From: a bacterium
GTDB lineage: Bacteria > Hinthialibacterota > Hinthialibacteria > Hinthialibacterales > Hinthialibacteraceae
Direction of reading: 5' to 3'
DNA: 64,000 nt
Assembly (NCBI GenBank): GCA_963663405.2
Contig: CAXXSM010000106.1
Location: 22,678 to 86,677 of the forward strand
Shown: positions 33,078 to 37,177 of the stretch, in pieces
How the letters are laid out: every line of letters starts with the position of its first letter
Numbering within the stretch: the first letter of the stretch is position 1
The notes under the pieces: generated by a model
Seen by the model: the letters and a program-made list of their open reading frames with translations, nothing else
Databases searched by the model: none
What the model was told of the DNA's origin: nothing
Translations under genes and position numbers: made by a program

Positions 33078-33168
33078 TTTCAATTTGTTAGCTGCAACAT
33101 GAAAGCAGTGTATTTTATTAATGTATTTTATTAAGATATAAAAAATGAATAACAAGTATGTTGTTTAT

Positions 33169-34559
33169 GCCTCGTCAAAAAAATCTATGGGTAAATTCCG
33201 GTTGAGGAAGTTTACCAAGGGTATGATACAAGGCGATTTCCAGCGTTCGAAATGTTCGAAAGCCGTACGCCATTTTGGTAGTCACTTTCGCTTTGTTATT
33301 TAATCCTTCCACGACACCAGAAGAAAACTCTTTTTTCGCCCGAAACCAGTTCAAAATCAGTTCCCGATGACGCCGAAGCATCTTCGCAACCTTTTTCATT
33401 GGCTCGATCCGGGATCGCATGGTCTTGGTACACCATTGATCCAAAAAACGGCCCGCCCACGATGCCGACTTATAGTCCCAGAAAAAGTGGAACTCTTCTT
33501 TTAAAAGATAACTACGCACGGTCCGAAGGTTATACCGAACCACATTGGCAAGTTTTTCCACCTGCTTCTCGGTTAGATTCACCGAACGTTTGAGAAACCA
33601 CCAACGGCTTCCTTTCAAGACCGGCTCCAATCCCTTGGCTTTCAATTCACGGGCTTCCCCGGCGCGGCGCCTCATCGATGGCTTTATTCATATGGGCCAC
33701 GATGTGAAAACGATCCAAAATATGGATGGCCCCTTTCGCTTTCTTCGCCACGACTTTGAGATACGCTTTCCCCATATCGCTGCAAATGAATTCCAACTTC
33801 GCGCTCCGCTCCTCACCCAACCAGCGGAAAAATCTCAAAAACGTCTTGGCCGTTCTCTTTTCCCCAATCCAAAGTAACCGCCTACATCCCTCATTGATTT
33901 GATACACCGCAGTCACGTAATTGTGCCCGCTTCCCCATTGCATTTCGTCCACTCCGATGGCGGTGATTCCTTCCAGGTTCCTATGCTCCCGTCCCCAATT
34001 GACGGCCCTCTCCACCGAGCAAAATACTTTGTGCCAACTCGTTTGAAACGCCTCCGCCACTTGCGTCCAATTTAACCGCTTCGCCCAACCCGCCAGAAAC
34101 CACTGATACGCGCTCGTTAATTCGTGCTTTCCTTCGGCCCAGGGAACTTGCTCAATTTTTACCCCGCAGTCTGGACACTCGACACGCCGCATTGTGTAGA
34201 TTAAAAAAAACGCGATTCCCCACAGCGGGACCATTTCAAAACGACGCTTGTCACGCGTGTCGTATCCGGGTCTTTTCTTTCCACAGCCGGAACAGATTGG
34301 ACGATTTCCCTTCCGGGGGCGGATTTCAACCTCCAACACGGTTTTCTTGTTCCATTCGCTAAAATAGACCGAATCGTACACAAATCCCTTGATTTTATGA
34401 ACGCGATTGAGGATAGTCTTTACTTGCATCCGGTGGCCTCCTGATTGATGGTTTGTCTTCGTCGACTCCATCTTCTTAGGATACGTTACCGGATGTCCTT
34501 TTCTATCTCTCCTTCTTCAGCATTCCCTCTTGTTTACCCACTGATTTCTCTGAGGAACC
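33169..34559 (-). mobile_element. ISL3 family insertion sequence
   Basis: Imperfect IRs gcctcgtcaaaaaaatctatgggtaaa and (reverse complement) ggttcctcagagaaatcagtgggtaaa; flanks differ, so no target duplication. Confidence 0.9.
33175..34471 (-). CDS. ISL3 family transposase (frameshifted near 33660)
   Basis: CSGCG/CPDCG zinc finger, IGVDE, ICSDM, LDRFH, SSGVVEGLNNKAK, AYGFRTF. Confidence 0.92.
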
Positions 34560-35502
34560 ATAGTTTGAAGAAGATTTCTATTTGCCAGCGTTCCTTGTAG
34601 ATGGCCGCGATAGTACGGGCGGCGAATTCGTGGTGATTGGTCAACAAGTCGATCATCCGTTTATTTTCTTCATCCCAAACCCGTACCAATCGGAACGTCA
34701 TGCCGGAGCAGACTTCTTGCGCACGATTCGAGGTGAAACGGATCGTATAATCGCCCCGTAGATTCGAATCCCCTGGGACCACTCGGCGGCTGATCAACTG
34801 ATACTTCAAATTCTCTTTGAGCCAGGTGACAAAATACACGCCCCGGTCGGTCCATTGCCGAAACAATTCGAAATCGACATAGGCGCGATCCATGGCCACG
34901 ATCGAGCCCGCGGCCAGATGAAGCAATCGGGCGATTGTGATATCGTGTTGTTTTCCCTCACCAATGTAGGCGTAGGCGGGCAGATACCCGTCGTGATCCA
35001 GGAGCAGGTGAAGTTTGACCGCCCCCTTGGTGCGCCGAAACTTCGCCCAATCGAACAGAGACGCGCACAAGTCAATGACGGACAAATCCAGGCTGTCGAG
35101 TTTGTTCTTGAAGCGGAATTTACGTTTCCCCTGAAATTCCAACTGCGCTTGGCGCAAAAGCGTGTAAAAGAGAGCCTGGAACATTTCCCAGGAACGATGT
35201 TGATTCGCATAGGCGAGAGTTGAGCGCTTGGGGGCGTTTTTGATACCGAGATGGGTTAATTTCCCTACACATGTGGCCAATCCCCCGCAGATTTCTCGCA
35301 AGGATTTCGCTTGGCCAAGTTGGCAAAACAACATGGCTACCAATTGCTCCCTGCATGAAAAATTCTTCGCATAGCAATTCCCGGAATACGTGTCCACGAT
35401 GCGGGCGAATTCAAAACGAGGTATAAAGGCTAGGATTTGCGAAAAAAGACTGGCACAATAAGTCATATCGGACACCTCCAGCATGGATTGGATATTTCGC
35501 AA
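34560..35502 (-). pseudogene. truncated IS4 transposase
   Basis: QLVAMLFCQL...SLREI, RSTLAYAN, KGAVKLH, MDRAYVDF, YKERWQIEIFFK then reads into the ISL3 end. Confidence 0.9.
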
Positions 35503-35573
35503 CTATACAATACCATGCGGGTGTCCGATTCTCATAGATGGACAATCCCTCATTTTTTTATTGGACAAGAGTG
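34560..35573 (-). mobile_element. IS4 family element (DUF4372-type), 3' part removed at the ISL3 junction
   Basis: Terminal cactcttgtccaa on the minus strand from 35573; hairpin atcggacacc/ggtgtccgat covers the transposase RBS. Confidence 0.85.
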
Positions 35574-35693
35574 AATAGAACAAGTTTCCTGGATGGTTAA
35601 ATTAACAGGGACATCCACGGAATCATTATCAGCACCAATTACCGGAATTGCGAATAAAACAGCAAATGCGAATAAAGCGATAAATTTCTTCAT
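35574..35693 (-). pseudogene. 5' fragment of a secreted pilin/fimbrial-subunit-like protein, interrupted by IS4
   Basis: GGAG RBS 7 nt before ATG; MKKFIALFAFAVLFAIPVIGA-DNDSVDVPVNLTIQETCSI ends at the IS4 terminus. Confidence 0.7.
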
Positions 35694-35730
35694 GATCATT
35701 CTCCAAAAGTAAGTTTTAAGCTTAAAAACA

Positions 35731-35808
35731 AGTGGACGGTTTCACAACTTGCTCCCAATCGCCCTATTCGTGACCAGATTAAAGGGCGAAAGATCTTCGC
35801 ATCTCACT
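35731..35808 (-). ncRNA. c-di-GMP-II-like riboswitch aptamer, gene-proximal copy
   Basis: AGUGAGAUGCGAAGAUCUUUCGCCCUUUAAUCUGGUCACGAAUAGGGCGAUUGGGAGCAAGUUGUGAAACCGUCCACU: P1, kink-turn, P3, pseudoknot, canonical AACCG. Confidence 0.8.
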
Positions 35809-35813
35809 TTTGG

Positions 35814-35892
35814 AGTGGACGGGTTCACGACTTGTGCTCCCCTTTGCCCCATTCGTGACCAGTTAAAGGACAAAGGATCGACGCATCTCACT
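35814..35892 (-). ncRNA. c-di-GMP-II-like riboswitch aptamer, middle copy
   Basis: AGUGAGAUGCGUCGAUCCUUUGUCCUUUAACUGGUCACGAAUGGGGCAAAGGGGAGCACAAGUCGUGAACCCGUCCACU. Confidence 0.75.
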
Positions 35893-35899
35893 CATGCCG

Positions 35900-35977
35900 A
35901 GTGGGCGGATTCACGATTTGCTCTCCCCCTGCCCCATTCTTGACCAATTAAAGAACAGGGGATCGACGCATCTCACT
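35900..35977 (-). ncRNA. c-di-GMP-II-like riboswitch aptamer, 5'-most copy
   Basis: AGUGAGAUGCGUCGAUCCCCUGUUCUUUAAUUGGUCAAGAAUGGGGCAGGGGGAGAGCAAAUCGUGAAUCCGCCCACU. Confidence 0.7.
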
Positions 35978-36188
35978 CAAATTTCTTCTTGGCGGACATG
36001 AGTTTTGCGGCTATAATAGAATCAGCCTATGTGGTTCCTTGTGGCTGTCCGCCATAACGCCCACCAGGACCACGCCCGCAGTACCCTCGCCTGGAGAGAG
36101 GACCAGTCTCTCCGGGCGAACTTAATTTAAACCAGTCATTTCATACCTCCTTTCTTTTAGGATACAATCCAACACAATAGGCTGGAAT

Positions 36189-37177
36189 TTAATTGACTTG
36201 CGTCGTTATATTGATCTTTCCACTATATTTTCCTGATCCCATACCTGTCGTAATCTTAGCGCTCCCCGCTAGATAAAAGGTATGAAATCCACAACCGAAA
36301 TTCAAGAATAAATCCGGCGCGCCAGGAGACACATTCTCACTCGGCTTCGCGTCCGCAACTGTCTTCCCGCTTCTCAATCCCAAATTCGACCGTGGAATCG
36401 TCCCCCCCCCGAACCGGATAATTCCGTAATACTGCACGTCACAGTGATCCGGCCCGCATTGGTCAAGACAAACACCCGCGGATACGTCTTCGAAACATTG
36501 TATCCAATATCACAATTCCCAAAATCCATCAAATCGGGACACACAAAAATCCACGCAAACTCCGGACAACAGAAGGAACATTCGATCGATCGCGCAAAAA
36601 CAGGCTTCGTACTTTTCCCCGCAAGGGCGAAGAACGTAATCCGCCCGCTATACACTCCCGCCGGGTCGGTGATGCCCAACCGCGCGCCGATGCGGAACCG
36701 GTTCGCCTCGAACATCTTCCCATCCGAGCAGGCTCCTTCCGCGATCAAGGTATCACCGGAGATCTCCAACGTCCCGCCGAACGATTTCGTCAAGTTCACC
36801 GGATCCCGCTGCGGTTTGATGAACAACCGCCCCGAATTGGCCCCCCCCGACCCATGAAAATCCTCCACCGTACAAAAGAGCTGCCACGTAGGCGCATACG
36901 CCCCAACATCGATGATGATTTCCCTCTCGGAGATGAATTCGATCGAAGAAGGATAGTCAACCCCATCACCCGAACCGGTGTTAAATCCTCTACCCCCCCC
37001 CGATTCTTTCAATTCCACCGAATCCGTGTTTAGCGAAAAGGTCAGATCAGCGGGAATAGGCTTCAGCGCCCCTCCATCCGGGAGAATTTCCTGCGCGGCC
37101 AGGCCGGTTGAGAAAAGAACCGCCGCGGCGAGGAAGAGCCCGGTGTATACAGCGTCCCGCATGATTGGGTACATCAT
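36189..37177 (-). CDS. secreted two-domain fimbrial/adhesin-like protein (frameshift in G run near 36405)
   Basis: Signal peptide ending LAA-Q; each domain ends in a pilin-like final strand (PAGVYSGRITF; GSGKYSGKINIT); GC-rich relative to flanks. Confidence 0.6.

What the first reader, a model, noticed from the sequence alone, without database searches (positions are those of the whole stretch)
35691..35815. Expression platform: one anti-Shine-Dalgarno strand competes with P1 of two aptamers
Seen: on the minus-strand RNA the junction between the middle and proximal aptamers reads CUCCAAAAGUGAG (35815-35803). It is complementary over 13 bp (one G-U) to CUUACUUUUGGAG (35713-35701), which contains the GGAG RBS of the downstream gene. 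This strand includes the 3' end of the middle aptamer's P1 and the 5' strand of the proximal aptamer's P1. No intrinsic terminator is visible between the aptamers. Inference: a translational ON switch in which ligand binding to two aptamers jointly frees the RBS, so several aptamers share one platform.
Basis: partly seen in the sequence, partly recalled or inferred. Interest (0 to 1): 0.8.

Follow-up and report, generated by a model that had tools for sequence, protein, structure and literature searches.

The report
Shared ribosome-site mask of triple riboswitch
Three back-to-back c-di-GMP-sensing RNA domains end in one stem that hides the ribosome binding site, a likely "on" switch of an unusual shared design, but here the controlled gene has been destroyed by insertion sequences.

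Summary
On the minus strand, CUCCAAAAGUGAG (35815-35803) pairs over 13 bp (one G-U) with CUUACUUUUGGAG (35713-35701), which holds the GGAG Shine-Dalgarno 7 nt before ATG 35693. The helix is in the minimum-energy fold. Its energy was reached by 0 of 2000 shuffled leaders.

It closes an array of three directly abutting c-di-GMP-II-like aptamers. All three are significant matches but score below Rfam's gathering score, and no terminator lies between them. GGAG itself pairs with CUCC. Three of those four bases are the outer pairs of the middle aptamer's P1; the rest of the strand is the proximal aptamer's P1 5' strand.

Constrained folding gives a coupling of about -5 kcal/mol between the middle and proximal aptamers and none for the distal one. 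A single-aptamer relative in another genus uses the same layout with compensating sequence.

The best reading is a translational ON platform shared by two adjacent aptamers. The sharing is inferred, not shown.

The ORF is cut after about 38 codons by nested IS elements, and two aptamers carry lesions. An intact twin lies on another contig. I rate it a new variant of a known kind, of moderate interest.

The parts
35895..35982 (-). Distal c-di-GMP-II-like aptamer
   Evidence: RF01786 31.7 bits, E 9.8e-5. Own model R1 82.1 bits. The pseudoknot 5' strand reads UCAAG, where the paralogue and other run contigs have UCACG at 35940.
35809..35897 (-). Middle c-di-GMP-II-like aptamer; its P1 3' strand is CCACUC, 35818-35813
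   Evidence: RF01786 29.5 bits. R1 80.7 bits. It has an extra CA at about 35834-35833 relative to the C38 paralogue.
35725..35810 (-). Proximal c-di-GMP-II-like aptamer; P1 5' strand AAGUGAG 35809-35803, P1 3' strand C-CACUU 35735-35730
   Evidence: RF01786 39.9 bits, E 4.6e-7. R1 79.2 bits. It is the only one of the three with the AACCG pocket string.
35803..35815 (-). Anti-SD strand CUCCAAAAGUGAG, spanning the junction between the middle and proximal aptamers
35701..35713 (-). SD strand CUUACUUUUGGAG; the Shine-Dalgarno GGAG is 35704-35701
   Evidence: Identical in the C38 paralogue.
35714..35723 (-). Spacer holding an 8-nt insertion relative to the paralogue
   Evidence: alignment gap; 8 letters left out at 35714 in one contig of run X2.
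35691..35693 (-). Likely start codon ATG, 7 nt after GGAG
   Evidence: The paralogue has the same 7-nt spacing.
35579..35693 (-). Stub of the regulated gene: signal-peptide protein, about 38 native codons
   Evidence: ORF; the multi-copy IS homology ends at 35578.
34560..35578 (-). IS4-like element (DUF4372 + DDE_Tnp_1 transposase), truncated
   Evidence: Pfam 1.6e-24 and 1.1e-16. (99.6% identical copy on C166).
33167..34562 (-). ISL3-family element inserted into the IS4-like element; its transposase is split into two ORFs
   Evidence: DDE_Tnp_ISL3. (four other full-length copies at 96-99.5% identity).
35889..35903 (-). Junction hairpin CACUC-GGCAU-GAGUG: distal P1 3' strand paired with middle P1 5' strand
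   Evidence: Present in the unconstrained MFE.

Best explanation
The 13-bp helix is the OFF-state stem of a translational ON expression platform. The platform ends an array of three directly abutting aptamers that are homologous to c-di-GMP-II riboswitches.

Without ligand, CUCCAAAAGUGAG pairs with CUUACUUUUGGAG and buries the GGAG ribosome binding site. The proximal aptamer's ligand-bound fold needs AAGUGAG for its P1. The middle aptamer's ligand-bound fold needs CUC for the outer pairs of its P1. GGAG itself is masked by CUCC. Occupancy of the proximal aptamer therefore removes most of the helix, and occupancy of the middle aptamer removes the pairs that actually cover the SD. The two are thermodynamically coupled through this one strand. 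The distal aptamer has no platform of its own and no robust coupling.

The presumed signal is high c-di-GMP. The output is translation of a small secreted protein operon. In this window the switch is a decaying copy, because the ORF is cut by insertion sequences. The intact twin sits at C38:19821-20076 of the same genome.

Shown: the helix, its non-random stability, its mutual exclusivity with both P1 helices, the aptamer fold with covariation, and the IS disruption. Inferred: the ligand, the ON direction in vivo, and the cooperativity.
For: 1. The helix is exact, lies in the MFE and centroid, and its energy was reached by 0 of 2000 shuffled leaders.

2. Among 17 aptamer-proximal leaders of the same genome, only the two triple arrays have an outstanding SD duplex: -19.4 against -8.5 +/- 1.8, 0 of 300 shuffles. 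The next best are 11, 12 and 19 of 300.

3. The aptamer fold is supported on 23 sequences. 89.5% of cells are paired against 72.5 +/- 1.2 in shuffles (0 of 500 reach it). The pseudoknot, which was not part of the model, is 94.8% paired, and 2 of its 5 pairs change on both sides.

4. Constrained folding, mean P(unpaired) of GGAG:
- no aptamer formed: 0.004 (window) / 0.009 (C38)
- proximal formed: 0.23 / 0.08; a 6-bp CUCCAA:UUGGAG helix remains
- middle formed: 0.55 / 0.35
- middle and proximal formed: 0.38 / 0.32
- distal formed: 0.002 / 0.009
Coupling energies are -4.9 / -5.5 kcal/mol for middle-proximal, -1.6 / 0.0 for distal-middle and about 0 for distal-proximal.

5. G007 is a genome of another genus in the same family. 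Its single aptamer passes Rfam's cut-off (63.9 bits). Its SD region CACGAACAAGGA pairs with AUCCUUUUCGUGG, which is the anti-SD followed by the P1 5' strand. The energy is -13.1 against -7.1 +/- 1.8, reached by 4 of 500 shuffles. The layout is the same, and the central UUUU/AA-AA is replaced by AAAA/UUUU in the window, matched by the P1 3' strands. G018 shows the layout weakly (40 of 500).

6. Both arms and the 7-nt SD-ATG spacing are identical in the paralogue, although the spacer between P1 and the SD strand differs by 8 nt. Homology between the two loci stops 3 nt after GGAG.

7. No terminator-like site lies at either junction.
Against: - There is no experimental or expression evidence.
- No orthologous triple array was found outside this genome. 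Searches found none, and one search found no relative of the regulated protein. The only direct comparator is therefore a 95%-identical paralogue, in which unchanged helix arms are uninformative. With 8 substitutions in 281 leader columns, about 0.7 are expected in 26 nt.
- Three of five other canonical-pocket single aptamers (G006, C22a, C22b) show no such duplex, and C23 is ambiguous (57 of 500). The layout is not universal.
- The overlap with the middle aptamer is only 3 nt. It could be a by-product of abutting duplication.
- In all modelled bound states GGAG is still only 0.3-0.55 unpaired.
- None of the three aptamers reaches Rfam's gathering score.
- The middle and distal aptamers have C/U at the position of the intercalating A70.
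- The proximal P2 has two U-U mismatches.
- The window copy controls only a gene stub.
Confidence: 0.6

Rival explanations
1. This is an ordinary single-aptamer translational ON switch. Only the proximal aptamer controls the SD. The 3-nt overlap with the middle aptamer's P1 is an accident of tandem duplication. The middle and distal aptamers are redundant, weakened, or serve another role such as ligand buffering or RNA stability.
For: - Nine of the 13 helix positions belong to the proximal P1 5' strand.
- G007 achieves the same layout with one aptamer.
- The middle and distal aptamers carry C/U at the A70 position.
- The distal aptamer shows no coupling.
Against: - The four SD bases pair with CUCC, not with the proximal P1 strand. 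With only the proximal aptamer formed, the model keeps a 6-bp CUCCAA:UUGGAG helix, and GGAG stays 77-92% paired.
- All three aptamers are kept in both paralogues. In C38 they have intact helices and pseudoknots.
Confidence: 0.25
2. The complementarity has no regulatory role. It is a chance inverted repeat or a leftover of the duplication that made the array.
For: - By length alone, 13-bp helices with G-U allowed occur in 2.5% of shuffled leaders.
- Conservation in a 95%-identical paralogue proves little.
- The window's gene is dead.
Against: - The energy was reached by 0 of 2000 shuffles.
- The helix covers exactly the SD and exactly the P1 strands.
- A relative has the same layout with compensating sequence.
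- The spacer indel leaves both arms untouched.
Confidence: 0.07
3. Control acts mainly on transcription or RNA decay. One route would be the weak hairpin GGGAGCAAGU/ACUUGUUUUU, which forms in the unliganded fold and contains a U run. Another would be Rho or RNase access to an unfolded leader. In that case the SD helix would be secondary.
For: The unliganded MFE pairs the proximal P1 3' strand and the U5 run with GGGAGCAAGU.
Against: - The terminator scan reports nothing there. The U run lies inside the stem, not after it.
- The SD helix is far more stable and directly covers the RBS.
Confidence: 0.08

Closest known systems
c-di-GMP-II riboswitch (Rfam RF01786; crystal structure 3Q3Z as described in PMC13715770)
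   Same: - The same helices (P1, short P2, hairpin) and the same pseudoknot.
- The same conserved strings: GA.GC, UGG.CAC, GGAGC.AGU, GUG.AACCG.
- Relatives in the same family pass the gathering score with the same U/A pseudoknot covariation.
   Different: - The window aptamers score 29.5-39.9 bits against a cut-off of 53.5.
- P1 has a bulged A.
- The proximal P2 has two U-U mismatches.
- The middle and distal aptamers have C/U at the position of A70.
Tandem c-di-GMP-II riboswitches: 59 doublets and 9 triplets in Sherlock et al. 2022, PMC9481103 (passages read)
   Same: Three aptamers of the same class lie in one leader upstream of a putative surface or secreted protein gene.
   Different: That paper's Table 1 files those arrays under 'multiple expression platforms, pseudo-cooperative'. 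Here the aptamers abut (junctions of about 5 nt), have no terminators, and are followed by a single SD-masking platform. I could not see that paper's supplements, so some of its triplets may be alike.
Cooperative tandem aptamers with one expression platform (glycine riboswitch type; also NAD+-I and guanidine-II in PMC9481103)
   Same: [quoted passage not shown] The predicted dose-response is steeper (model Hill n about 2).
   Different: - The aptamer class is different.
- There are three aptamers rather than two.
- The proposed coupling runs through one shared alternative helix, not through tertiary contacts between aptamers.
- Nothing has been measured.
Triple-tandem c-di-GMP-I riboswitch Bc3-5 of Bacillus thuringiensis (PMC4759541; abstract only, from the search listing)
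   Same: Three c-di-GMP aptamers lie in one 5' UTR.
   Different: It is class I and is described as three complete riboswitches.

Membership tests
c-di-GMP-II riboswitch aptamer (RF01786) | Covariance-model score at or above Rfam's gathering score (53.5 bits) | tested here: not met
   Proximal 39.9 bits, distal 31.7, middle 29.5. No riboswitch hit at gathering level in the whole window. E-values are significant: 4.6e-7 and 9.8e-5 for the 801-nt search. Against RF03169 the proximal aptamer scores 32.1 (cut-off 40). No window aptamer is listed for RF03170.
c-di-GMP-II riboswitch aptamer (RF01786) | Secondary structure: P1, 3-bp helix, long hairpin and loop-to-3'-strand pseudoknot, supported by covariation | tested here: met
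   on 23 sequences and 22 pairs. 89.5% of cells are paired (shuffles 72.5 +/- 1.2; 0 of 500 reach it). 17 pairs change on both sides. The pseudoknot is 94.8% paired. The window's distal copy has one pseudoknot mismatch.
c-di-GMP-II riboswitch aptamer (RF01786) | Pocket nucleotides: A69, intercalating A70 and G73 (the AACCG string), the ceiling A of AGU, and the unpaired A after P1 | tested here: inconclusive
   Mapped by alignment to the Rfam consensus, using the numbering given in PMC13715770. The proximal aptamer has AACCG, so the feature is met. The middle has ACCCG. The distal has AUCCG (ACCCG in C38). A69 and G73 are kept, but A70 is a pyrimidine. The mapping is my inference.
c-di-GMP-II riboswitch aptamer (RF01786) | Binds c-di-GMP selectively | not testable with these tools
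   Needs in-line probing or ITC.
Cooperative adjacent aptamers with a single expression platform | Homologous aptamers immediately adjacent, with no expression platform between them | tested here: met
   The junctions are GGCAU and CAAA(A). Model matches overlap or abut. No terminator-like site lies at the junctions.
Cooperative adjacent aptamers with a single expression platform | One platform after the last aptamer that depends on more than one aptamer | tested here: inconclusive
   The SD helix overlaps P1 of the proximal aptamer (9 nt) and of the middle aptamer (3 nt). The dependence is modelled only: coupling of -4.9 / -5.5 kcal/mol.
Cooperative adjacent aptamers with a single expression platform | Measured Hill coefficient above 1 | not testable with these tools
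   The toy partition model gives n of 1.9-2.0 under equal assumed affinities. This is not a measurement.
Pseudo-cooperative tandem riboswitches (complete units in series) | Each aptamer has its own expression platform | tested here: not met
   There is no room (junctions of about 5 nt) and no terminator between the aptamers.

The most novel reading that the evidence does not exclude
A c-di-GMP-II aptamer array works as a true cooperative device rather than as stacked independent switches. Two abutting aptamers are coupled, without tertiary contacts, simply because one anti-Shine-Dalgarno strand is at once the end of one P1 and the start of the next. The ribosome site opens only when both are occupied, giving a digital response with Hill n of about 2. 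A third, platform-less aptamer with an altered pocket position sits upstream as a buffer or a folding aid. This would add a second-messenger class, and a new coupling principle, to the short list of riboswitches with adjacent aptamers and a single platform.
Probability: 0.35. Interest if true: 0.7.

Novelty: new variant of a known kind. Interest (0 to 1): 0.5.

Why it matters
Tandem c-di-GMP riboswitches are thought to sharpen the switch between lifestyles by stacking independent units. If this array routes two or three aptamers through one ribosome-site mask, it shows a simpler way to obtain cooperativity from plain duplication: a shared alternative helix. It would also extend the adjacent-aptamer, single-platform architecture beyond glycine, NAD+-I and guanidine-II.

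The design is compact, about 300 nt, and easy to test or reuse as a steep c-di-GMP sensor.

The host belongs to a small phylum (35 species genomes held). It carries at least 22 such aptamers upstream of secreted-protein genes, so c-di-GMP control at the RNA level seems unusually expanded there.

Tried and rejected
- Exact-pattern scans for window-type aptamers in genome contigs and metagenome contigs found 0 stretches each.
Of the 80 loci fetched, 0 hold an aptamer by model R1. It gives no information on how common abutting arrays are.
- The search for related loci with the regulated 134-aa protein of the C38 twin found no relative in genome contigs.
- Pfam gave only sub-threshold hits for the regulated proteins. 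The best were DUF4402 at 20.4 bits (cut-off 25.2) for the upstream protein and WxLIP_PGBD at 18.4 bits (cut-off 27.3) for the 569-aa protein.
- The protein atlas gave unnamed clusters and one SCPU cluster at rank 26, score 0.91. This is a lead only.
- AlphaFold on the single sequence gave pLDDT 43.3, too poor for a fold search, so none was run.
- Sequencing runs: no RNA holder is listed.
- The laid contigs are short. They mostly show the C38-type variant, plus one further variant of the distal-middle part. Apart from one C38-type contig, none covers both helix arms, so they give no test of covariation. One 251-nt contig of run X2 bridges the junction between the IS and the leader, but X2 is from the same sample as the best holder.
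- RF03169 and RF03170 do not fit the window aptamers better than RF01786.
- I considered that the 13-nt inverted repeat might be the terminal repeats of a small mobile unit. I rejected this because none of the other 16 aptamer leaders examined shows a comparable duplex at the aptamer flank.
- I did not determine whether the rest of the regulated gene survives beyond the IS nest.
- Supplements of PMC9481103 and PMC12452182 were closed. Their tables may list abutting c-di-GMP-II arrays.
- No print search found a c-di-GMP-II array with a single shared platform. This is not proof of absence.

Full report
**What is there**

On the minus strand, from about 35982 to 35725, lie three head-to-tail copies of an 85-89-nt structured unit (alignment, 79% mean column identity). 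At Rfam's gathering thresholds the window has only two tRNAs.

With E-value reporting, the proximal unit (35810-35725) matches c-di-GMP-II (RF01786) at 39.9 bits, E 4.6e-7. The distal unit (35982-35895) matches at 31.7 bits, E 9.8e-5. The middle unit scores 29.5 bits in the genome-wide search. All are below the 53.5-bit cut-off.

They are nevertheless homologues.
- Two genomes of the same family carry single copies above the cut-off (63.9 and 60.3 bits) with the same lineage-specific UGGUCAC/GUGAAACCG pseudoknot pairing.
- On 23 family members the fold is well supported. 89.5% of cells are paired against 72.5 +/- 1.2 in shuffles, with 0 of 500 shuffles as high, and 17 of 22 pairs change on both sides.
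- The pseudoknot was not part of the model used for the alignment. It is 94.8% paired.

**The observation**

The ATG at 35699 is too close to GGAG.

The helix appears in the MFE and the centroid of the whole leader and of the proximal unit. Its duplex energy (-24.5 kcal/mol for leader against SD region) was reached by 0 of 2000 dinucleotide-shuffled leaders and by 1 of 2000 shuffled SD strands. Length alone is less striking: a helix of 13 bp or more, with G-U allowed, occurs in 50 of 2000 and 26 of 2000 shuffles.

No terminator-like site lies at either aptamer junction. The junctions are about 5 nt long.

**Anatomy of the platform**

Each P1 is G/A-AGUG(A)G paired with C-CACU-C/U (one search prints the pairs). 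The anti-SD strand is made of three parts:
- CUC (35815-35813), the three outer pairs of the middle aptamer's P1 3' strand;
- one linker C;
- AAAAGUGAG, the extended 5' strand of the proximal P1.

The four SD bases pair with CUCC. The upstream flank CUUACUUUU is a decoy that mimics the real proximal P1 3' strand CCACUUGUUUU. The helix is therefore mutually exclusive with both P1 helices. Because the ligand pocket of this class sits on P1, ligand binding should favour P1 and release the SD. That makes it an ON switch at the level of translation initiation.

**Constrained folding**

I forced P1 and the 3-bp helix of chosen aptamers and kept their pseudoknot strands unpaired.

| Aptamers formed | Mean P(unpaired) of GGAG, window | C38 twin |
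|---|---|---|
| none | 0.004 | 0.009 |
| proximal | 0.23 | 0.08 |
| middle | 0.55 | 0.35 |
| middle + proximal | 0.38 | 0.32 |
| distal | 0.002 | 0.009 |

With only the proximal aptamer formed, a 6-bp CUCCAA:UUGGAG helix persists.

The ensemble costs give these couplings:

| Pair of aptamers | Window (kcal/mol) | C38 twin (kcal/mol) |
|---|---|---|
| middle-proximal | -4.9 | -5.5 |
| distal-middle | -1.6 | 0.0 |
| distal-proximal | about 0 | about 0 |

A toy partition model with equal assumed intrinsic affinities gives an apparent Hill n of 2.03 and 1.87. These are model results, not measurements. Even in the bound states the SD is only partly open.

**Comparative evidence**

The genome is 8.4 Mb in 170 contigs and 82% complete.
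- It holds 20 matches to RF01786 at E of 0.01 or less, none above the cut-off (150 of 651 candidates scored).
- It holds 22 matches to my own model R1 (150 of 3061 candidates scored).
- The tandem sets are the window triple, a near-identical triple at C38:19821-20076, and a doublet on C18.

In the 35 genomes held for the phylum, 6 including this one have a match at E of 1e-4 or less. The other five have one aptamer each and no tandem (one search gave the same five among 41 relatives).

The C38 leader is 95% identical to the window leader. Within the 281 leader columns I count 8 substitutions and 2 indels, none in the helix arms. Only about 0.7 substitutions would be expected in those 26 nt, so this says little. 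Three other points are more telling:
- the 8-nt indel lies in the spacer, between the P1 3' strand and the SD strand;
- the SD-ATG spacing is 7 nt in both copies;
- homology stops 3 nt after GGAG, and the coding regions differ.

Among the 17 aptamer-proximal leaders of this genome, only the two triples have an outstanding SD duplex (0 of 300 shuffles). The next best are C130c at 11, C23 at 12 and C130a at 19 of 300. The other 12 leaders are at 57 or more of 300.

The best independent support comes from G007, another genus, with a single aptamer at 63.9 bits. Its SD region CACGAACAAGGA pairs with AUCCUUUUCGUGG, which is an anti-SD directly 5' of, and continuous with, the P1 5' strand. The energy is -13.1 against -7.1 +/- 1.8, reached by 4 of 500 shuffles. 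The layout is the same as in the window. The central run is UUUU in G007 and AAAA in the window, and both the decoy strand and the P1 3' strand follow suit.

G018 shows the layout weakly (40 of 500). G006, C22a and C22b do not (492, 258 and 462 of 500). C23 is ambiguous (57 of 500).

In the pocket-variant copies described below, the SD instead tends to pair with a CCUCC inside the P1 3' strand. That reaches the same ON logic by another route.

**State of the window copy**

The regulated ORF has a signal peptide, MKKFIALFAFAVLFAIPVIGA... It runs only about 38 native codons. At about 35578 begins an IS4-like element (DUF4372 + DDE_Tnp_1) with a 99.6% identical copy on C166. That element is itself interrupted at about 34560 by an ISL3 element. 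The ISL3 element has four other full-length copies in the genome.

The upstream gene is one 328-aa ORF in C38 but is split in the window (267 + 82 aa).

Relative to C38 and to contigs from other runs, the window's middle aptamer has an extra CA in GGAG-CA-CAAG. The distal aptamer has UCAAG instead of UCACG in the pseudoknot strand.

The window array is therefore best seen as a decaying duplicate. The functional reference is the C38 locus. There the array precedes two small secreted proteins (134 and 182 aa) and a 569-aa protein. None has a Pfam family above threshold.

**Ligand**

Reading the Rfam alignment against the 3Q3Z numbering given in PMC13715770, the pocket string A69-A70-C-C-G73 is AACCG in the proximal aptamer. 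It is ACCCG in the middle aptamer. In the distal aptamer it is AUCCG in the window and ACCCG in C38. For that paper I read part 1 of the text and some passages.

A69 and G73, which read the two guanines, are kept in all three. The intercalating adenine A70 is kept only in the proximal one. c-di-GMP is thus the likely ligand, at least of the proximal aptamer. The affinities of the other two may differ. This mapping is my inference.

**Comparison with the literature**

- Sherlock et al. 2022 (PMC9481103; passages read) report 59 doublets and 9 triplets of c-di-GMP-II. Their Table 1 files them under multiple expression platforms, pseudo-cooperative. It reserves 'one expression platform' for glycine and guanidine-II, and the text describes NAD+-I the same way.
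- A 2025 survey (PMC12452182; passages read) likewise finds that c-di-GMP riboswitches tend to occur as complete units in series.
- The triple-tandem Bc3-5 is class I and is described as three complete riboswitches (PMC4759541; abstract only, from the search listing).

An abutting c-di-GMP-II array with a single SD-masking platform overlapping two P1 helices is therefore a new variant of known kinds. I could not see the supplements of these surveys. My own wider scans were either empty or uninformative.

**Verdict**

A translational ON platform is likely (about 0.6-0.7). Joint control by the middle and proximal aptamers is plausible but only modelled (about 0.35-0.4). There is no evidence that the distal aptamer takes part.
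- The window copy is a relic.
- Interest is moderate.

Noticed in passing
Own genome: C130 (x4), C149, C6, C55 (x3), C18 (x2), C85, C27; also L023 (G031) and L024 (G028): About 14 of the 22 aptamers in the own genome have the 3' core GGCGAAYCCCCUCCAC instead of GUGMAACCG.CC, and so do the single copies in G031 and G028. By alignment this is A70 to U/C and G73 to C, a change in the base that reads one guanine of c-di-GMP. Most of them score below the cut-offs of RF01786, RF03169 and RF03170. This may be an un-curated pocket variant with another ligand. In these copies the CCUCC inside the P1 3' strand often pairs with the SD.
   Followed up: partly
window 36118-36150 (-) and 36087-36119: A five-codon mini-ORF (MTGLN) with a strong AAAGGAGG site lies between the upstream gene and the array. 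It is conserved in the C38 twin with one synonymous change (GGT to GGC). A 13-bp hairpin follows it. No function is assigned.
   Followed up: no
window 35990-35998 and 36046-36054: A perfect 9-nt inverted repeat (UGGCGGACA / UGUCCGCCA on the RNA) lies immediately 5' of the distal aptamer. It may be a leader hairpin.
   Followed up: no
window 33167-35578: Nested insertion sequences. An ISL3 copy (four other full-length copies in the genome) sits inside a truncated IS4-like element (one other copy, on C166), and together they cut the riboswitch-controlled gene. The sequence below 33167 is unique and carries plus-strand genes, so the rest of the operon seems to be lost or moved.
   Followed up: partly
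window 36189-37177 (-): The gene upstream of the array is one 328-aa ORF in the C38 twin, with a weak sub-threshold DUF4402 hit. In the window it is split into 267-aa and 82-aa ORFs. One contig of run X2 lacks a base at 36188.
   Followed up: partly
window about 35693 / C38 about 20100: The 95% identity between the two loci ends 3 nt after the SD. The two downstream secreted-protein genes share only a similar signal peptide and the first residues after it. The leader, with its SD strand, behaves as a module placed in front of different paralogues.
   Followed up: no
window 35786-35800 (-): The proximal aptamer can form an alternative hairpin, GCGAAG-AUC-UUUCGC, followed by CCUUUAAUCU. This is the only terminator-like hit on this strand. 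It competes with the aptamer's own P2, which has two U-U mismatches in both paralogues.
   Followed up: no
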